A stretch of 64,000 bases of DNA, taken from assembly GCA_964016885.1 (NCBI GenBank), contig OZ024750.1, positions 29,574,001 to 29,638,000 of the forward strand, given 5' to 3'. The notes below the pieces were generated by a model. That model did not search any database, was not told the DNA's origin, and was given only the letters and a program-made list of their open reading frames with translations. Positions 23,501 through 64,000 of this stretch are shown piece by piece (the stretch's first letter is position 1; each line of letters starts with the position of its first letter). This DNA is from Eledone cirrhosa. Its lineage: Eukaryota. Both the position numbers and the translations under genes were made by a program.

Positions 23501-23753
23501 CTTCAACATCACACCAGGACACGTCAAAACAGAAACTGACCACACAAAATTCAAGAAGTCTTTGGACAAATTCCTCCAAGTAATCCCGGACAAACCACCC
23601 ACACCCGGATATGTCTCCGCAAACAGTAATTCTCTTCTCGAATGGGCCATGGTGCCCAAATCCTGAATTGAAAGACTTCGCCAGGTGGTGCTATTAAGTT
23701 AGACATGGCCTGGGCCAATACTGGCCAAAACATTTCAAAGTTATTCAAAGTTA
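23501..23753 (+). mobile_element. CR1/L2-group LINE 3' fragment
   Basis: Translates [48 protein letters not shown]...stop, a typical CR1-group ORF2 C-terminus (FN..P...FK..LD.FL). Confidence 0.7.
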
Positions 23754-23976
23754 TATCTATATATATATATATATATATCTATATATATATATATATATCT
23801 ATATATATATATCTATATATATCTATATATATATATATCTATATATATATATATATCTATATATCTATATATATATATATCTATATATCTATATATATAT
23901 ATCTATATATCTATATATATATATCTATATATATATATATATCTATATCTATATCTATATATCTATATATATCTAT

Positions 23977-26807
23977 AGTAATCGAATAATTAAGCTTAGA
24001 TTAGTTGAAGGTAGGAGACTACTGACAATCATCTCGGTCTATGCTCCCCAAGCAGGCCTAGGCAAAGATGAGAAAGACTGCTTTTATGAGCAACTCTTGC
24101 AAACAACCACAATGACAGAGGACGGAGACATCGTTATGCTAGCAGGAGACTTCAATGGTCATGTTGGACAGCTCCAGGATGGTTACACTGGGGTACATGG
24201 TGGGCACGGTTACGGTTCAAGAAATGAAGAAGGAGTGAGACTTCTTGAATTTTGTGATGCAAGTACATTGACTATTTGCAACACAAACTTCCAGAAACCT
24301 GCCAATCACCTAATAACCTACAAATCTGGTGAGCACATAAGCCAGATTGACTTCCTGCTAGTTAGGCAGCGGGACAGGCAGATAGTGTCTAATACCAAGG
24401 CATACCCTGGGGAAGAATGTACCCCACAGCATAGGTTAGTTGTTAGTGATATCTCAGTAAGCAAGAGATGGAATGAGACATATAGGAAGGTGTGGAGAAG
24501 AAAGGTCTGGAAGCTAAAAGACCTTTCACTAAAATTCAAATTTAGGAAAGCCCTTCAAGATGTATATGACGAAAAAGAAGACGATTTAGAGACGTATGAC
24601 ATAGATAATAACTGGAAGTTCTTACGTGACAACTTGCTGCAGGCTACTGATGAAACCTGTGGCTGGAGCAGAGCTCCAACCAGACAGAGAGTGACCTGGT
24701 GGTGGAACAGCACAGTAGATAAGGCTATTAGAGACAAAAGACTAGCATGGAAGGCTTGGAAAAAGGGTGGGAGTAGGGAAGAATATACAGCCACTAAGAG
24801 AGAAGCTAGACGTCAGGTGTACTTAGCATGCAGGGAGGCAGAGAGTAGGAAGTTTGCCAATGTTCTGCGACGGGAAGATCAGAGGCGTGCGGTGTTCCAC
24901 ATTGCAAGGCAGTGTGTCAATGCAAATCAGGATGTTGTTGGTGATAAATGTGTCCGGGATGATGCCGGTGTACTTAGTGTCACGAATGACCAGAAAAAGG
25001 AGGCCTGGAAATGTCATTATGAGAGACTGATGAATGTGGAGAACGAATGGGAGAGAGAGAAATTACCCTTGGTAGATCCGACAGAGGGACCAGCTATTGA
25101 GATTGACGAATATAGGGTCCAAGAGGCGATTAGGGAAATGAAAAATGGTAAGGTGGCCGGACCATCGGGAATAGTTGCTGAGATGCTGAAGGCATCAGGG
25201 GACGTAGGCACTAAACTGGTTGCACGCATCATCAATCAGGCTATATATGGTGGTGTCATACCCAAAGACTGGTGCAGCAGTATTCTCATAAATTGCTACA
25301 AAGGTAAAGGGGATGCTTTGGAGAGGAGCAATTATAGGGGTATAAAGCTGATAGATCAGGTTATGAAAGTGGCAGAAAGGATTTTAGCACAACTAATTAG
25401 AGAAAGGGTCAAACTAGATGAGATGCAGTTTGGTTTTGTGCCTGGGAAGAGTACAACAGATGCCCTCTTCTTGGTGAGACAAATGCAAGAGAGGTTCTTA
25501 GAGAAGAATAAGCCACTATACTTAGCCTTTGTTGACCTAGAGAAGGCCTTTGATAGGGTACCCCGATCTGTCATCTGGTGGTCCCTAAGGAAGCTGGGTG
25601 TTGAGGAATGGCTTGTGAGGACAGTGCAAACTTTGTACAGAGGTACTCTCAGTAAAGTCAGGGTAGGAATGGAGTTTAGTGAGGAATTCCAGATACAAGT
25701 AGGAGTACATCAGGGTTCGGTCCTCAGCCCGCTCGTGTTCATTATAGTCCTCCAAGCCATAACAGAGGAGTTTAAGACTGGCTGTCCATGGGAACTTCTC
25801 TATGCTGACGATCTGGCTCTTATGGCAGAATTAGTAGAGGAGCTAGAGAATAAATTCCGGCTATGGAAACAGCAGTTGGAAGCAAGAGGACTGAGAGTAA
25901 ATCTAGCTAAGACAAAAGTGTTGATGAGTAGAAAAGAGGACAAAACCCTGATTCCGTCAGGGAAATGGCCATGTTCGATATGCAGAAAAGGAACTGGCAT
26001 AAATTCTATAAAATGCACACAATGCAGGTCCTGGGTACACAAGAGATGTAGCGGGATAGCAGGCAAACTAACAGGTAGGGAGAAATATGTATGCAGTAGA
26101 TGTACAGGGAAATTAGACAGTAGAAGTCGCACTGATAGACACATTTTTCAAATGCGAGAGGGCGCTATAGAAGTGGTGGATAGCTTCCGGTACCTAGGAG
26201 ATCAGATTAGCATGGGAGGAGGGTGTTCCGAGGCCATAGTATCTAGAATAAGGACGGGTTGGAAGAAGTTTAGGGAGCTGCTTCCTCTGTTGACGAAGAA
26301 GGGTTTCTCCCTGCGTACGAAAGGCCGGTTGTATGATGCCTGTGTGAGGAGCGCGATGCTGCATGGTAGTGAGACATGGGCAGCAACCGCAGAGGATATG
26401 CGACGGCTGGAGAGAAATGAGGCAAGCATGCTCCGTTGGATGTGCAGTGTAAATGTGCGTGAACTACCCAGCATAAATGTATTGAGAGAGAAACTGTGTC
26501 TGAGAGGGATAGAATGTAGTGTACGGGAGAGGAGACTGAGGTGGTATGGACATGTGATGCGCATGGAGGATGACCGATGGGTGAAGAAGTGCCAGGAAAT
26601 GCCAGTTGAGGGAAGACGTGGTAGAGGTAGACCACGAAAAACATGGGCGGAGGTGGTGAGATCAGACCTCAGATCATTGAAGCTCACGGTGGAGATGACG
26701 AGGGACCGTGACGAGTGGAGAGATGCTGTGCTGAATAAGACCCGTCCCACCCTTGCAAGCAGGGAAAAACGGACGTAAAATGATGATGATGATGATGATG
26801 ATGATGA
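23977..26807 (+). mobile_element. RTE-clade LINE, 5'-truncated, uninterrupted ORF (partial APE endonuclease + RT + Cys-rich finger), (GAT)n tail
   Basis: Frame is open from 23977 (SNRIIKLRL...ISVYAPQ) to the stop at 26778. Motifs: [72 protein letters not shown]. The (GAT)n tail follows the stop directly. Confidence 0.96.
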
Positions 26808-55438: not shown

Positions 55439-56271
55439 TCACTTTGCAAACTCCTCATTCATAACAAGTTCTTCCTCTACATAGGAAGAATCCTCTTCAA
55501 AAAATGGGTTTTCATTTTCCAGAAGAACAATCAACTCTTGAGCAACTGTGGCTATGGAGAGGTTTAGCTGGCTCCATTTGGCATTGTCATCCACTGTGAC
55601 CGAATTAGAATTCTCTAAACGTCTCTTTTTACATAGATTTTCTTTTTCTATGGGACAATTAGCTTCACAGTCTGATGGAGATAACGAAAGTTCTTTTCTC
55701 TTTCTTGTAGTTCTATTATTATGTAGTTGATTATTATTATTATTGCTATTATTGTTGTTGTTGTTATTGCTGTTGTTATTGTTATCGTGGCAACAGTTTC
55801 CGTTTAGAGTGTCTGATTTGTTTGGGTATATCTGTGTGTGTGTAATGGTAGTTGAAGTGACAGGCGTACTGTCAATACCGTTACAAGGTTCAGAGTCTGG
55901 GTGTGTGAGTAATGGTAGTTCGGGGTTAGAACTGGTGTTGGGAGGAGAAGATTTGGGGGTTGTGCTTTTGTTCAGATCTTCACTATCTTCTGACTTGTCT
56001 AAGTTGCCAAACTCGGTGTCAATCAATGACTGAATGTCCATTCGGAGTTGATGTTGTTCCAGATGCTGCTGTAATCCTAGTATAAGTGGGTCATCTTCAG
56101 CAATTTTCTCAACTTCTATCATATACCGCAATGCTTCGTAGCTGCAATCTCGGTAGCCAAGAAGGAAAAGGGATTTCTTGTTTATTTCCTGGTTGTCTTT
56201 CACAGGAATTAATGTAGGGATTTCTGGTAGCATATAACAGGTTTTTGGTGTCACAGGTGATGTAGATTTAG
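55439..56271 (-). CDS. Orange-domain protein, terminal coding exon
   Basis: Acceptor ttgtttttgtttcAG (minus strand), phase 1. LFLLGYRDCSYEALRYMIEVEKIAEDDPLILGLQQHL fits the Hairy/Hey Orange pattern GY/FxxCxxExxRY...DPL...L..HL. Followed by a Ser/Pro region, poly-Asn, RKRK...KKRR NLS-like motifs and an acidic C-terminus. Confidence 0.8.
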
Positions 56272-56936
56272 CTGAAACAAAAACAAAACAATTAGATATC
56301 TATCGTCAATTTTGCAACCGTGTGTGTGTGTGTACGGACACACACACACACATATATGTATACATACATACATACACATATAAGTGCCACTTTAGTGGTT
56401 GGTCTACTTGCACATTTACACTCCAGTATACAGTATCAATGACTATAGAATGAGATCAGAACAAAGAGGAGACAGAGTGGCAAGAATAGTTGTTGAGAAG
56501 GTCACAGGATGTGTGACAAAAGAGCTTTAACAATTAACAATGAAACAACCGTCTAGTTACTAAACTAACCAATGAATAGATTAGTTACTTAACTAATAAT
56601 AAACTGAATTGAAACTCAACTGGCTACATGACTCTACCAAAGTATAACAATATTTGTTTTAACACATTTCATATCAAGAATTTTGCGAAACAAATACAAA
56701 AACGAAGTGTGTGTGTGTGTATTCTCTGAACCACAAGGTAAACTGCAACACTTAACTTTTATTCATTATGCCATTGTCCTCTATGGCAATTAAGTAATGG
56801 AAATTAGGGGTTTAAAATCTAATCAATTTATATTGTCTAAGGCTTAATGTTCTTTCTTAATTAAATGTTCCCATGTGGTGTTTAGACTAATTTTACTGAG
56901 AATCTTGTGAATATTGTTTGGGAATATCTTGTTTAC

Positions 56937-57134
56937 CATTTTGATATTGTGTCTGCAGCTCTTCCCTTGTAATTATGTAACACCTTCCCACTCCCACCAC
57001 TCTTATCTTCACCTTCCCACTCCTCTTATCTTCATCTTCCCACTCCCACCACTCACAATTCTCACTTTTATCTTCACCCTTTCTCCAACTTCCATTCATC
57101 TCTGTCGTTTGACAGTCTCCTACTTCTACAATAT
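56937..57134 (-). CDS. Probable upstream exon of the Orange-domain gene (ATG at 57099, or open from the acceptor at 57134)
   Basis: Open frame MNGSWRKGEDKSENCEWWEWEDEDKRSGKVKIRVVGVGRCYIITREELQTQYQN ends at a GTAAAC donor in phase 1, matching the phase-1 acceptor at 56271. aactAG acceptor ends at 57135. Confidence 0.6.
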
Positions 57135-58239
57135 CTAGTTTGTGTGACAGCAAATAAAAACATATTCCAATTATTATGTGTGTCTACCTTGTATGATGGT
57201 TGTGCTGATGACTGCAAAAAAACACCCACTTCAACCTGTTAGGTGGTTATGCTGGTGCCACGATAAAAAGCACCCAGTCCGCCCTGTTAGATGGTCATTT
57301 TGGTCTCATCATAAAAAGCACCCAGTACACCCTGTTAGATGGTCGTTCTGGTGTCATCATAAAGGGCACCCAGTCCGCCCTGTTAGTCGTTCTGGTGTCA
57401 CCATAAAAAGCACCCAGTACACCCTGTTAGATGGTCGTTTTGGTGCCATGAGGAAACCACCCAGTCTACACCATAATGTGGTTAGTGTTAGAAGGGGTAT
57501 CAAGCAGTAGAAACCAAACCAAAATACAGATCTGTGTTATTTTCATAAGTTAGGTTTCCAATTATGTTTTTTGAGAGATTTTTACTGTCTTTAGATAAAT
57601 ACAGTTATCCAATTATTTCATGTAGAAATATCAGATAGAAATTAATTATACAGGACTAGAACTGTTTCATTTGTTTCAAATCATTAAGAAAGACTTCCAG
57701 ACTTCCATGGTGATTTCAAATAAATGAAACAGTTCTAGTCCTGTAGAAGTCATTTCTATCTGAAATAAATATATATCTCCACTACTAATGTAGTGGAGAT
57801 ATATATTTAACTTTGCTGTCTTCATGATACCCTTTCGGAAAACCATTCTTAATCTCTCCTCCCTCATCTCTCCATCTCACAAAAAAAAATTAATATAGAA
57901 ATGGCTTCTACAGGACTGTTTCCTGTAAAAGCCATTTCTATATTAAATTTTTTTGTATACACTATTAAAATATTGAGTACCTTACTTACTGAGGTTACCC
58001 CCGATTGAACCCGGGATTTTATATATATATATATATATATATATACATACACACACAGACACAGACACACACACACGCACGTAGTTCAAGGTAAACAAAA
58101 CGGATACAATACAAAATCTTATTAGTTTCACGCTTGTTGGAAAGAGAGAGAGAGAGAGAGATGGTAATAACGGTGTAAATGGTTGCGTTGGAAAACATTT
58201 AAAATGCTCACACACAAGACTACATACTTTGTAGGAATT

Positions 58240-58722
58240 GTGTGGGGTGGAGTGAGGTGGTGTGGTATGGTGTGGTGTGGTATAATGTAGTGTGGTTTGG
58301 TGTGGTAAGGTGTGGTGTGGTGTGGTATGGTATGGTGTGGTGTAATGTGGTGTGGTATAATGTAGTGTGGTTTGGTGTGGTATGGTATGGTATGATGTGG
58401 TGTGGTGTGGTATGGTGTGGTGTGGTGTGGTATGGTATGGTGTGGTGTAATGTGGTGTGGTATAATGTAGTGTGGTATGGTATGGTGTGGTGTAATGTGG
58501 TGTGGTATAATGTAGTGTGGTTTGGTGTGGTATGGTATGGTATGATGTGGTGTGGTGTGGTATGGTGTGGTGTGGTGTAATGTGGTGTGGTATAATGTAG
58601 TGTGGTATGGTATGGTGTGGTGTAATGTGGTGTGGTATAATGTAATGTAGTGTGGCGTGGTGTGGTATGGTATAATGTGGTGTAGTGTGGTGTGGTATAA
58701 TGTGGTGGAGTGTGGTGTGGTA
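58240..58722. repeat. Pentanucleotide (TGTGG/TATGG)n
   Basis: Direct inspection. Confidence 0.92.
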
Positions 58723-59062
58723 TATGTAGTCTGATATATGTAATGTAAAGTATGTCGTTAAATGCAAAGCATGGCTTCACTCTGGCATCCAGATGGATGC
58801 CAATCCGAACGGATACGTCAGTGATGAGATGGTATGAAGAGAAGCTAGCCGTCTACTCAATATAACTTGCACATAAAAAATATATTTTTGTACTGGCGCC
58901 CCCTCTCTTTACATCTATCTACCTATAGCTATATCTCTCTAGGAGAGAGAGATACATACATACATACATACATACATACATACTATGTGTGTGTGTGTGT
59001 ATTTTTATGTGTGTGTGTGTATCTCACTACATCTCCTCTCTCTCTCTCTCTATATATATATA

Positions 59063-59105
<43 letters not shown>

Positions 59106-59158
59106 GCCCCTCGCTATCTCTACATCTCCATCCATCTATCTATCTTTAAAGGTCCAGA

Positions 59159-59229
59159 TGACGTCTGTCTAGACTCTAGACAAGAACGAAATGCTAACCG
59201 TTCAGCCATAAATAAAATCAGTGACGTCT
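59159..59229. promoter_or_regulatory. Pair of CRE-like sites
   Basis: TGACGTCT at 59159-59166 and 59222-59229 (7/8 match to TGACGTCA), upstream of the minus-strand gene. Confidence 0.3.
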
Positions 59230-59341
59230 AGTCATGGCACCAAATCGCCAAACATTCAGCAGGCAACAGTTTTGTGTTGCCTGTTTTAAAAACGTAAGAC
59301 CGAGTAATAATTAGGTTGTAAAATGATAGTTATTTGCTGAT

Positions 59342-59380
<39 letters not shown>

Positions 59381-60490
59381 CACATACACAAACGTGCGCA
59401 GTAATCTCACACATACACGCACGGGTTGACACACACACATACATGCAGCACGGGTTCACAGACACACACATACAGTTACATGTACACGCATACACGCACG
59501 GGCTCACACACACACACATAGATGCAGCACGGGTTCACAGACACACACACACAGTTACATGTACACGCATACACGCACAACACACATACATACATACACA
59601 CAGTACGGGTTCACACACACACACACACACACAGACACGCGCATGCACGAGCTCACATGCATGCACCGGCTCACAGACACATACGTCCATGGCACACACA
59701 CACACACACACATACGCACAGGGCACACACACGAGCACGGGCCCAAACACACACACATATATATACACACACACACACACGGGCACAGGCCCACACACAT
59801 ACATGCACAGGCACACACACACACAGCTAGTTGTCAATTTTATCTCAGAAACCTCCTCCCACTTTTCTTTGTTGACATTAAGCTCCAGGTTATTATTAAT
59901 GGAGGTGTGTGGCTGAGGGGTTAGGAAGTGGGATTCACAATTGTAAGGTTGTGAGTTTGATTCCCGAGCTGGGCGATGCATTATGTCCTTCAGTAAGACC
60001 CTTTATTTCACGTTACTCTTTCTGTCAGGACTTGCAACCGGTAGCTAGTATTACCAACAGAAAAACCGAACGGACACATTGTTTCCTCGGTCCGATTTGA
60101 CGAGTTTCACCTCCTCTTGCTAAACGAATGAGGTCTTGAATCTTGTTGATCGATTCTATCGATCGATTATTGGCAGGTATGTGGCAGTAAAGTAGTGTAA
60201 AGATCAATTAGAAATCCTTCAGACCGAAATAAGTGCCAAATAACAGACTTCCGATCTCTCTTTCTTTGTTTCTTTCTCTCGGATACATTTGAAGGTTTAA
60301 TAAGTCAAGTATAGGAGTTGATTTAACCAACTTTGCCCCTTCTCTCCCCAACCCCAAATTTGCTGGCTTTCTGCTTGAATTAGATATCAGTAAGACCAGC
60401 AACTGGTTAGATAAAACCTACGTGTCCTGACCATCAAGAGAATTAGAATTATTTCACTTTGTTTACCTTTAACAACGAGACCTAAATTCT

Positions 60491-60546
<56 letters not shown>

Positions 60547-61137
60547 TCCTTTCGATGTCGATAAAAAAAAAGCACCAGTCTAATACTAGGGTCGATTCTT
60601 CCTCTCTCTGGAAGAAATCTGCTGGAGAGGGATGGGCTCCGCCAGGCTTAAAATGCCCCTGCGACTATCAGGAGTTACGGGGCCACACACACACACCTTA
60701 TATTTGACATTTCAAATTATTTAAAGGTACTGGATTTAGATACAAAACTAAACAAGCTACAGATTTTGGACCTCGCCTTATACAGAAGCGACCTAAAAAT
60801 AATTAAAAGGCACACACACACACATATATTCAAATTTTGAGACCTTCTGGTGTAATTTTTTTAAAACAAGGAGTCACCGAACTTTATATAGCCCAGGGCC
60901 TCACCAAGCCTTAATCCAACACTGGTTATGTAGTGCATTACCAATTTAAATAAATACATGTATATATTTATATACACACAATTGTGTATGTTTTTATAAG
61001 TCTTTTGATACAACTCTCGCCTTCATTCACAGTATGTAGGGCAAGTCAGCCTTAATGAAGCTACCCTACAAACTACACCCACCAATCGTCTTTAAGAAGA
61101 CCCCATTGAAAACTAACCACTACCACCGCTGTCATAC

Positions 61138-61171
<34 letters not shown>

Positions 61172-61747
61172 CATATATAGAAGTGGAAGCTTAGTAAAAT
61201 CGAAGCTTTGGCTGTGGCCAAGCAAAGTCGACCTACAATAAGGAATGAGTAGCAAAGCACTCAATAAGGGTTGGTCCTTAGAGTAATAACATACGTTTAA
61301 ATAGCTTGACAAATTGAAAATTGCGGTAGGCAAAACCCAACCATACAATACCAAAACAACGAAAGAACTAATCAGGTTAAAACATATATATATAAAACAT
61401 ATATATATTTCGTTCTCTCTCCATTTTGCCATATCCTCTCAGTTGCCCCAACAGTCGTGCTACTCTTCCAATCTATTTAAATACCTCACTACCCCCTTCG
61501 TCTTCCATAATCTCACGCAACCTCCAACACTTCAATTGCGCATGCTCATCTGTTATGGCACATGTTCACCTTAATCACTCAATTCCCTGTCATAAACAAC
61601 CACCACGACCACCACCACCACCACGACATCCACGTCTCTGTTGCAATAAGTTACTCGTTTAAAGGTTTAATTTGACAATTTGTTTGTTTTCTAAACACTG
61701 GAGATTTTCTTTCTAGTTTAAATCAACAATAAAAAACATTATTAATT

Positions 61748-62105
61748 GCGGCATAGAGTTACGGCTCTTTACATTCTGAGTTCAAATCCCGCCGAGGTTA
61801 GCTTTGCCTTTCATCGTTTTGGGGGTCGATAAAATAAAGCACTGGTAACGTTCTGGGGGTTGATTTAATCGACTTTCCCCGCCACCAAAATTGTTGGCCT
61901 TGTGCCTAAATCAGAAACCATTAATGATAATAATTGTTTTTACTTTTGGAACAAGGCCAGCAATTTGAAGGGAAGAGGGGAAAGTCGATTAAATCGATCC
62001 CAGTGCCTTAACTGGTACTTTATTTTATCGGCGGGATTTGAACTCAGGACGTAAAGAATCGTAACTATATACCGCAAAGCATGTTATCCGACGCTCCACC
62101 GATTA
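61748..62105. mobile_element. Tail-to-tail inverted pair of SINEs
   Basis: + copy at ~61748-61922 and - copy at ~61933-62105. Confidence 0.75.
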
Positions 62106-64000
62106 CTGTCAATCCACAGCGATTTTATAAATAACGACTGTACTATTTAAAGAAAATATTACATCTTCCACTATATAATAGACTTGTTGTTATTTACGTT
62201 TTTGTAAATATCCTTGGTGTTGTTTAGCTGCTGGTCAATTCAAAGTATTTCAGGGGTATAGAGGACTACCTTATCCAATGTGCCTGCCTTCCTTTTTTAG
62301 GGAGATTTCACATCTATTTTTAACTGGCCGAACGACCATGTAACGAGGTTCCCTTTCTTGTAAATATTTTTAAAATTCTTTTCTACTAACGATAAAATAA
62401 AAGCCGGTCAAATATTGATATCGATCTAATCTACAATCCCTCCCTCCTTCCCAGAATGTTGTGGACTTGTGCCTAATGGTAAAAAAATCATTATTTGTAT
62501 TGTTATTTAGATTATAAGTGGATTCCCATCGTGATCGGTCTAACTTTTTATCTCATTGGGGTCGATAAAATAAGTAGAAAAATCATTCTGGGGCCGTCGT
62601 TGCTTAAAATAAGTACCAGCCATACACTTGGGTTGATTTACTAAACTATGTCTCCCTTACACATCTGTGACCTTGTGCTAATGTAAAACTATTTATTCAT
62701 AAGGCATGTTGACACTGCAACGAAAAAGCTGTCCCTGTTGAAGCTATTTCACTATATTAGTTATTTAAATATGTTTTAGAAAGGCATGAGATCACAACAT
62801 CTCCTTTCACCCACTTTAAAATATGTATGTATATATATCCACACACACATACACATACATAAACACACACATACACATACATAAACACACACACACACAT
62901 GTATATGACCAAATGATAAACAGACGAAACTCCAGAGTGACAGGACTCACTTTTTAGCCCTAATAATAATGAATATATATATATATTCTACCCAGTTAAA
63001 ATAAATTATTTTCCAGAGGCTCTTTTCTTCCCTTTGAAGGGGACAGGGTTGTTCTTCAACCTTGATTAAACAGGCTTGTGGTCAAAGGTAGTATCCAGCC
63101 GTGACCATCTCGTCTTTTTAGAGTTATCTAAGACAACATCGATTGGGTTCAGGGAACAATCAGCCTGTCATGTTGTTAATTAGTCCCAAATCAACGTTGA
63201 TGGGCAAACTAAAGGTATTTTTAACTATGACCACCCCATCTCGTGTTTTAAGGGTTTCTTTTTAGGACTACTACACAATTAATGTGTCCTTCCTTGAAGG
63301 AGGGTGTGATTGGAACTCAGCCTTATTTCTAGCCATTACAGCAACCACGTAAAGGCACTCACGTTGATTGGGGAGGTTGTTTACTTTTAAAACTGTTGTG
63401 AATCTTAAGATTTGCAAACTCTAGTTCGGCGTCTCACTGTTCCCAGATCAAATATCTTTGTAGCCAATTGTTCCGGCTTTTGATAAAATAATAACTGTTA
63501 ATAAAATAAGTAACAGTGGTACACTAAGCTCAATAAATTTTCTATGATCTCCGGTACAAACAGACTTGATAAACTAATGAAAAGAAATACTCAGTCCTTG
63601 ACTTACCTATAAACTAAATAAGCTATAGCCTTAGGGTCACACACCCTCGAGGGTCTAGTTTTTATTCTTTAAACACTAAATTATCAAAAATGATACATAC
63701 ACACCACACACAAACACACACACAACACACACACACTCACATTAATATAAAAAAAATAATAATCATGTATATTTATATTTAAAAAAATTACACGAATGTT
63801 TTTAGAGAAGGGCCTCTAATGTCATATAGCTTAGGGTCTCAGCAGGTGAAAGGCCGGCCCTGGAAATACACCTTTGAAGCATTAAAACTTCGATATGTTG
63901 ATAGGTATTTTAAAGTAACAACTAGAACTCGATTTTTAATACGTACGGGAAAGCTATAAACACCGCAACACCTTATCTCATTATCACACGTAAACAAAAT

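What the first reader, a model, noticed from the sequence alone, without database searches (positions are those of the whole stretch)
55439..57134. Orange-domain protein apparently lacking bHLH and WRPW, with an unfamiliar Trp-rich N-terminal module
Seen: two phase-matched exons (57099-56937 + 56271-55439) give ~331 aa containing an Orange-like segment (GYRDCSYEALRYM...DPLILGLQQHL). The ~85 aa before it carry WWEWEDED-KRSGKVKIRVVGVGRCYIITREEL rather than a basic helix-loop-helix. The C-terminus has RKRK/KKRR and an acidic amphipathic ELIVLL tail, not WRPW/YRPW. Established: in Hes/Hey proteins the Orange domain normally closely follows a bHLH, and WRPW recruits Groucho. Inference: an Orange-only protein could be a non-DNA-binding antagonist or cofactor of Notch-effector bHLH-O factors (analogous to Id proteins), and the N-terminal motif may be an undescribed lophotrochozoan domain.
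Basis: partly seen in the sequence, partly recalled or inferred. Interest (0 to 1): 0.75.

Follow-up and report, generated by a model that had tools for sequence, protein, structure and literature searches.

The report
Octopus Orange-only candidate Hes antagonist

Summary
Half right. The 833-nt exon 56271-55439 is real. It encodes an Orange domain, two basic clusters and a conserved acidic amphipathic tail, with no WRPW/YRPW. The Trp-rich first exon (57099-56937) is not supported: it is C-free G/A tandem-repeat DNA, and WWEWE and VVGVG are one 19-mer read in two frames. Orthologous Octopus proteins map instead to exons 38-44 kb upstream, and to a candidate six-codon alternative first exon 0.85 kb past the window end. 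The intron phases match those of this genome's own Hes/Hey/Helt/Cwo genes. Only a weak helix-1 remnant of the bHLH survives. The gene belongs to a wide family (120 cluster representatives; named ones from molluscs, nemerteans and arthropods). Of these, 80 share the C-terminal helix, none has WRPW/YRPW, and two nemertean members still carry a degenerate bHLH. The proposed mechanism is already shown for Drosophila Insensible (Orange, no bHLH, sequesters Hes proteins). Orthology to Insensible and binding were not tested. Verdict: a new variant of a known kind; the family as such was not found in print.

The parts
55439..56271 (-). Last coding exon (exon D, 833 nt with stop, starts in phase 1): Orange domain, low-complexity linker, basic clusters, C-terminal helix and acidic tail
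   Evidence: Open frame; 76% identity to O. vulgaris P0001 over the exon; a contig of run X4 lies on 55792-56271 and stops at the acceptor
56009..56170 (-). Orange domain with extended second helix; family-type G where the six canonical Orange domains of this genome have R
   Evidence: Pfam weak; family profile vs 2db7 E 2.3e-5; model pLDDT 85-97 per block, top fold hit 2db7; 96% identical to Octopus, 76% to P0011; R invariant in 6 of 6 canonical, G in 109 of 120 family representatives
55619..55705 (-). Two basic clusters (RKRK, KKRR) 21 residues apart; predicted nuclear localisation signal (inferred)
   Evidence: Sequence; basic clusters also in the Octopus orthologues; not seen as such in P0011
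55517..55576 (-). Conserved C-terminal amphipathic helix (family pattern I-A-S-L-T/A-E-E-L/I-L-S-L-L-E), followed by an acidic tail to the stop
   Evidence: 80 of 120 representatives score above the best shuffled control (53 seeds, 27 non-seeds); mean D/E fraction around the motif end 0.43; no match in the Orange-exon frames of the six canonical genes; helix in both models
56937..57099 (-).
56272..64000 (-). In-window part of the intron upstream of exon D. The upstream exons lie beyond the window end (numbering continued = G000:C10 position minus 29,574,000): candidate alternative first exon 64846-64831 (ATG, M-K-Y-K-S, phase-1 donor); exon C 94150-94081 (70 nt, phase 0-1, helix-2 pattern lost); exon B 100210-100103 (108 nt, phase 0-0, no basic region, conserved helix with weak likeness to bHLH helix 1); candidate ATG-ending exon A 102687-102621
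   Evidence: Exons B and C: genome search E 6.5e-15 and tblastn with Octopus orthologues, AG..GT boundaries, exon B helix 96% identical to Octopus and 76% to P0011, exon C 57% and 39%, 3.2 bits on a bHLH profile with 7 of 1000 shuffles as high. Alternative exon: one of 3 candidates of a relaxed scan, resembles the MKYRSG start of annotated isoform X2. Exon A: nearest of 7 scored ATG|GT donors, splice signals only. Splicing not shown by reads

Best explanation
This is a Hes/Hey-derived gene that keeps the Orange module but has lost the basic region, helix 2 and WRPW/YRPW, and its product likely works in the nucleus as a non-DNA-binding decoy that pairs Orange-to-Orange with Hes/Hey-class repressors and would lower the number of active dimers. 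Shown: gene anatomy, domain loss, descent signs (intron phases, nemertean members with a bHLH), conservation of the Orange, the N-terminal helix and the C-terminal helix. Inferred: nuclear location; binding to octopus Hes/Hey proteins; antagonism (by analogy with Insensible); a second partner-binding role for the acidic amphipathic tail, which Insensible is not described as having.
For: Descent: exons B and C have phases 0-0 and 0-1 and exon D starts in phase 1. The helix-1 exons of 6 of 6 canonical bHLH-Orange genes of this genome are phase 0-0 (84-102 nt; ours 108). The helix-2 exons of 5 of 6 are phase 0-1 (73-97 nt; ours 70); the sixth lacks that intron. PMC4172395 reports the same three-intron pattern for Platynereis Hes1-10 (passage). 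Two nemertean proteins carry HLH, family-type Orange and the C-terminal motif together, and one of them, P0095, has this exon as its only match in the genome. Loss of DNA binding: no basic region or helix 2 in the spliced model or in the Octopus orthologues; HLH in 2 of 124 proteins scanned; WRPW/YRPW/FRPW in 0 of 120. Orange fold kept, with selective conservation: Orange 96/76%, linker 63/18%. Precedent: Insensible binds Dpn and Hes1 through its Orange, its Orange alone suffices, and it blocks Dpn dimers (PMC6295162). Orange strengthens Hes/Hey dimers, and Helt uses its Orange to bind Hes5 (PMC1950541).
Against: There is no functional evidence for this gene or any non-fly member, and no link to Insensible's sequence was made. 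The family Orange differs from all six canonical ones at a position that is invariant among them (G for R), which could change partner choice. Insensible has its Orange at the C-terminus and is 176 aa; here the Orange is followed by about 190 residues and a conserved helix that pure sequestration does not explain. The octopus Orange scores below the Pfam cut-off, the VIA Z of 7.5 is tied with unrelated hairpins, and for a second family model 2db7 was not among the 50 rows listed. The helix-1 likeness is weak: 7-23 of 1000 shuffles score as high. Many representatives are unnamed contig predictions that may lack 5' exons, so 2 of 124 may understate how many keep a bHLH (P0076, nearly P0114's twin, looks like such a case).
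Confidence: 0.58

Rival explanations
1. Adaptor rather than decoy: the Orange docks on DNA-bound Hes/Hey dimers (or self-dimerises) and the acidic amphipathic tail recruits a co-activator or a degradation machine, so the protein rewires or removes the repressor.
For: The tail helix is conserved in 80 of 120 representatives, is followed by acidic residues, and 52 of 53 seeds have a [LI]xx[LM][LIMF] pattern, partly by construction of the seed pattern. It is not confidently packed on the Orange in a compact member's model (pTM 0.46 with mean pLDDT 78), so it looks free to bind. The likeness to acidic LxxLL-type activation motifs is recalled, not tested.
Against: 40 of 120 representatives, the named arthropod ones among them, lack the motif, so it is not needed family-wide. 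Only 21 of 53 seeds have a strict LxxLL. No partner was identified.
Confidence: 0.2
2. The Orange has been redirected to partners other than bHLH-Orange proteins (for example a Su(H)/CSL co-repressor complex or a BOIP-like protein), so the protein is not a Hes antagonist.
For: The family Orange forms its own side of the tree (98/93 against 5 canonical; SH-aLRT 90 against 6) and has the G-for-R change. Insensible was first described as a nuclear inhibitor of Notch target expression (PMC4046977, passages). Hey1 Orange binds BOIP, listed apart from the bHLH partners (PMC1950541).
Against: The later Insensible study found no effect on a Notch reporter in neuroblasts and direct Orange-Orange binding (PMC6295162). 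Core Orange residues G, C, E, R, Y, V, E and L are shared with octopus Hey and Helt.
Confidence: 0.17
3. One reading: 57099-56937 is a real (perhaps minor) exon that adds a Trp-rich module.
For: ATG, open frame and phase-matched GT donor are present; the gene does appear to use alternative first exons.
Against: Repeat origin of the motif; adjoining dispersed repeat; 9 other equally phase-matched open frames in the intron; weakest donor of the three scored, 1.6 against 6.0 and 3.6 with my rough weights; no homologue among 151 proteins.
Confidence: 0.03

Closest known systems
Drosophila Insensible (Insb, CG6520); PMC6295162, PMC4046977
   Same: Orange module without a bHLH; one leftover helix likened to a bHLH helix; basic nuclear signal; invertebrate-only so far. 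The proposed mode of action is taken from it.
   Different: Insb is 176 aa with the Orange in its last 54 residues, an N-terminal nuclear signal and a central helix likened to helix 2. The octopus protein is about 337 aa (long form), has the Orange in the first half, a remnant likened to helix 1, late basic clusters and a conserved acidic C-terminal helix. Orthology was not tested because no Insb sequence was available from the tools.
Hey, Hes, Helt and Clockwork orange/Stich bHLH-Orange repressors (HEY1 Orange, PDB 2DB7)
   Same: Orange fold and core residues; same intron phases around the former bHLH and before the Orange; nemertean relatives keep a bHLH that is 38-41% identical to octopus Hey, their best match of six.
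   Different: No basic region, no helix 2, no WRPW/YRPW; G for R in Orange helix 2; a C-terminal helix not found in the six canonical Orange exons. This genome holds separate Hes (3), Hey, Helt and Cwo-like genes (names assigned by me from motifs, Helt and Cwo partly from recall).
Id/Emc proteins and Hes6
   Same: Antagonists that act by sequestration (PMC1950541, PMC6295162).
   Different: They pair through an intact HLH; this protein lacks helix 2 and would have to pair through Orange.

Membership tests
bHLH-Orange (Hes/Hey/Helt/Cwo) transcription factors | Basic region plus two-helix HLH | tested here: not met
   No Pfam HLH in P0001 or P0011; own bHLH profile gives 3.2 bits for the N-terminus against 45-46 bits for the nemertean proteins
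bHLH-Orange (Hes/Hey/Helt/Cwo) transcription factors | Orange domain | tested here: met
   Weak alone; 106 of 124 relatives hit Hairy_orange at E 0.05 or better, about 20 at or above the cut-off by my count; profile and fold matches to 2db7
bHLH-Orange (Hes/Hey/Helt/Cwo) transcription factors | C-terminal WRPW/YRPW (Hes, Hey) | tested here: not met
   Ends EFAK; 0 of 120 representatives hold [WYF]RPW
bHLH-Orange (Hes/Hey/Helt/Cwo) transcription factors | Introns before and after the helix-1 exon (phase 0) and between bHLH and Orange (phase 1) | tested here: met
   the exon B donor lies one residue later after the helix-1 proline than in Hey, Helt and Cwo (by eye); exon joins inferred from orthologous proteins
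Insensible-type Orange-only antagonists | Orange present, bHLH absent | tested here: met
Insensible-type Orange-only antagonists | Orange at the C-terminus of a short protein | tested here: not met
   About 190 residues and a conserved helix follow the Orange. Some insect-type hits such as P0049 do have this layout
Insensible-type Orange-only antagonists | Sequence orthology with Drosophila Insb | not testable with these tools
   No Insb sequence among the named hits; the papers' alignments are pictures
Insensible-type Orange-only antagonists | Orange-Orange binding to Hes proteins and loss of Hes dimers | not testable with these tools
Insensible-type Orange-only antagonists | Nuclear protein of neural precursors | tested here: inconclusive
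   Two basic clusters 21 residues apart; gene ids not found in the searchable supplement files of an octopus brain atlas
Id/Emc | Intact HLH without basic region, no Orange | tested here: not met
   Helix 2 absent and Orange present

The most novel reading that the evidence does not exclude
The gene represents an overlooked, ancient branch of the Hes/Hey superfamily, shared by molluscs, nemerteans and arthropods and including fly Insensible. It shed its bHLH stepwise (near-intact in Tubulanus, eroded in Lineus, one helix in cephalopods, undetectable in most) and serves as a protostome-wide Orange-based brake on Notch effectors, with a lophotrochozoan acidic tail adding a cofactor-recruiting function.
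Probability: 0.35. Interest if true: 0.72.

Novelty: new variant of a known kind. Interest (0 to 1): 0.5.

Why it matters
Insensible has been treated as a fast-evolving insect protein (PMC6295162). The lophotrochozoan survey whose methods passage I read used bHLH domains as queries (PMC8166818), which would miss an Orange-only gene. If this family is what it looks like, Orange-based antagonism of Notch effectors is old and widespread. Octopus neurogenesis would gain a single-copy, testable candidate for timing exit from the progenitor state, and the nemertean-to-cephalopod series would be a natural record of a transcription factor turning into its own inhibitor. The conserved acidic tail is a short motif with no recurring Pfam match here and is easy to assay.

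Tried and rejected
RNA evidence: no RNA holder listed (four runs of unrecorded kind, one study). Complex prediction (family Orange with octopus Hes Orange) was not available; no verdict. Idea that the octopus N-terminal helix equals the central helix of the insect-type proteins: no match, 729-1000 of 1000 shuffles as good; rejected. miR-279 8-mer sites as in the insb 3' UTR (PMC5800810): none within 5.4 kb downstream on the sense strand, only two 7-mers about 5 kb away; 2 matches in the window against 2.9 expected; rejected. C-terminal helix folding back on the Orange: pTM 0.40 and 0.46, and no VIA row spans both parts; not supported, not excluded. Which canonical family is the parent: unresolved; Hey plus family is not rejected (p-AU 0.57); an 8-row bHLH+Orange tree puts the two nemertean proteins together at 88/87 on long branches. 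The tree used 37 hand-picked stored proteins plus the window's own, and lost one canonical gene to a pattern miss. One search used every fourth representative plus up to 5 named ones and all 6 canonical genes. All family rows were found by likeness to the query, which favours their clustering. The Hey exon offsets were 3 nt off and were corrected. A word-index search with P0095 at E 1e-8 returned only itself (threshold too strict), and one with alignment A1 returned 9 proteins, so taxon range rests on few names. P0083, P0091 and P0096 were dropped as spurious before the counts of 120. The Atlas top hit for P0001 was an Orange-only, mostly arthropod cluster of 52 members at 0.83, a lead only; a second Atlas query gave no answer. 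A strict scan for the alternative first exon found nothing; a relaxed one gave 3 candidates. 'insb' in PMC13172424 and PMC9238270 was a funding acronym or web address.

Full report
SETTING. The window is G000:C10:29,574,001-29,638,000 of a 3.0-Gb genome. The closest proteins come from Octopus vulgaris, O. sinensis and O. bimaculoides, at 76% identity over exon D, so the animal is inferred to be an octopod. Positions above 64000 continue the window numbering.

1. THE OBSERVATION. The large exon is real. 56271-55439 follows an AG, is open to a TGA and encodes the Orange-like segment, RKRK, KKRR and the ELIVLL helix. A contig of run X4 (kind not on record; 88 million letters; one study) lies on 55792-56271, stops exactly at this acceptor and carries 367 further letters beyond it; I read it as a spliced transcript, which is an inference. 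The Orange call is weak for the octopus sequence alone (E 0.027, 15.2 bits, cut-off 25.3) but firm for the family. Of 124 proteins scanned, 106 hit Hairy_orange at E 0.05 or better. A 93-sequence profile finds HEY1 Orange 2db7 at E 2.3e-5. The model of the O. vulgaris orthologue has 2db7 first in Foldseek (rmsd 0.9 A, E 0.13) and VIA (Z 7.5, tied with unrelated hairpins). For a second, compact member 2db7 was not among the 50 VIA rows.

The small exon is not supported. Its first 100 coding bases hold no C. A 19-mer occurs at 57054 and 57002, 52 nt apart, and reads EWWEWE in one place and RVVGVG in the other; TRF calls the stretch a 2.8-copy tandem repeat. The bases just 5' are a dispersed repeat (39 of 40 other matches). 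Phase matching is cheap: 23 donors in 10 open frames of 50 codons or more fit 56271 within the same intron. The peptide matches 0 of 151 stored proteins and no Pfam family.

2. THE REAL GENE. The N-terminus of the Octopus orthologues maps to exon B (100210-100103, 108 nt, phase 0-0) and exon C (94150-94081, 70 nt, phase 0-1), both AG..GT. A candidate ATG-ending exon lies at 102687-102621 and a candidate alternative first exon at 64846-64831; the latter resembles the MKYRSG start of annotated isoform X2. B+C+D translate to 336 residues without the start Met. These joins rest on orthologous proteins and splice signals, not on reads. Conservation is patchy, as expected for a disordered protein with binding elements. 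Against O. vulgaris and the unnamed P0011: exon B helix 96/76%, Orange 96/76%, linker 63/18%, C-terminal helix 89/70%. Two distant family queries each hit only this locus, so it appears single-copy (only the best candidates are scored).

3. DESCENT FROM A bHLH-ORANGE GENE. The genome has six canonical Orange genes. In 6 of 6 the helix-1 exon is phase 0-0 (84-102 nt). In 5 of 6 the helix-2 exon is phase 0-1 (73-97 nt) and a candidate phase-1 acceptor precedes the Orange. Exons B, C and D repeat this layout; PMC4172395 describes the intron positions for Platynereis Hes1-10. Exon B has no basic region but keeps a helix with weak likeness to helix 1 (about 3 bits; 7-23 of 1000 shuffles as high across three sequences and two profiles); exon C has no helix-2 pattern. 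Two nemertean proteins, from Tubulanus (P0095) and Lineus (P0114), have a Pfam HLH, the family-type Orange and the C-terminal motif. They score 45-46 bits on my bHLH profile and are closest to Hey among the six (38-41%). The parent family is unresolved.

4. THE FAMILY. The exhaustive search gave 123 representatives at E 0.001 or better; 3 were dropped as spurious. Of the remaining 120, none has [WYF]RPW, 72 have the Orange within 50 residues of the start, and 80 carry the C-terminal helix above the best shuffled score. G replaces an R that is invariant in the six canonical domains in 109 of 120. Trees of 48-60 columns place the family apart from the canonical genes (98/93; SH-aLRT 90), with the caveats of short alignments, one source species for the canonical side and selection by likeness. 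Names were looked up for 24 clusters: Octopus, Pomacea, Tubulanus, Lineus, Schistocerca and Pollicipes; most are unnamed. The named arthropod members lack the tail helix. Some unnamed predictions may be missing 5' exons.

5. MECHANISM. Without a basic region or helix 2 the protein cannot form a normal bHLH dimer on DNA, and without WRPW it lacks the Groucho motif (PMC1950541). What remains is a pairing module, basic clusters and an acidic amphipathic helix that is not confidently packed on the Orange (pTM 0.40 and 0.46). The tested precedent is Insensible: Orange, no bHLH, its Orange alone binds Dpn, it binds Hes1, and it blocks Dpn and E(spl) dimers (PMC6295162). I commit to the decoy model at 0.58. 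Binding, location and function are all inferred.

6. NOVELTY. The mechanism is known, so this is not categorically new. Databases already label some members 'Orange domain-containing protein'. Ten paper searches turned up no description of a mollusc or nemertean Orange-only family, of the C-terminal motif, or of the gene ids; most hits were seen only as listings, and the library lacks most subscription papers. PMC4046977 says only that insb orthologues could be identified in invertebrates. What I saw of each paper: passages for PMC4172395, PMC1950541, PMC5381572, PMC8166818, PMC7738191, PMC12983829, PMC4046977, PMC5800810, PMC8657492, PMC13172424 and PMC9238270; passages, section 9 and supplement legends for PMC6295162 (one file not searched, figures are pictures); a supplement search only for PMC9712504 (one PDF unread). 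The unread Insb alignments bear on orthology.

7. VERDICT. Observation partly confirmed; interpretation partly supported; new variant of a known kind; interest 0.5. The headline Trp-rich module falls, but the gene marks an apparently uncatalogued Orange-only branch with natural intermediates of bHLH loss and a conserved, unexplained tail.

Noticed in passing
window 14514-41162 (+): Multi-exon amidase-family gene (Pfam Amidase on two exon frames; FAAH-like by recall), lying tail to tail with the Orange gene.
   Followed up: partly
window 23698-26778 (+): Uninterrupted 1026-codon frame with endonuclease, reverse transcriptase and PHD-like finger, a LINE-type element inside the amidase gene.
   Followed up: partly
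window 55985, 55995, 56000: Run X4 (another sample) differs at three places in exon D. Two are A-to-G on the coding strand, one of them K to R as in O. vulgaris; the third is not of the editing type, so alleles are at least as likely as A-to-I editing.
   Followed up: no
window 57217-57449: 48-bp minisatellite of about 5 copies in the intron.
   Followed up: no
L006:968-963 (-); window 54120, 53770, 53681 (-): A CACGAG N-box-like site about 120 nt before the candidate alternative start codon and three K-box-like 6-mers downstream of the stop; motif names recalled, not tested against chance.
   Followed up: no
Proteins P0049, P0142, P0093, P0116, P0132, P0067, P0109: A subgroup (two named Schistocerca) with a conserved central helix and a late Orange domain, the layout described for Insensible; the best candidates for its orthologues.
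   Followed up: partly
Proteins P0052, P0123: Unnamed members with other bHLH remnants: a basic-region-like stretch in P0052 (not above shuffles) and a helix-1-like stretch in P0123 (3 of 500 shuffles).
   Followed up: partly
Proteins P0051, P0058, P0059, P0092, P0102, P0122: Subgroup that lacks the acidic helix and ends in SPSI or TPSL; the four looked up carry no name, taxon unknown.
   Followed up: no
L026-L031 (G000 C399, C28, C4, C24, C4, C1): Six canonical bHLH-Orange genes in this genome, including a Helt-like one; the Hes gene on C28 lacks the intron between bHLH and Orange.
   Followed up: partly
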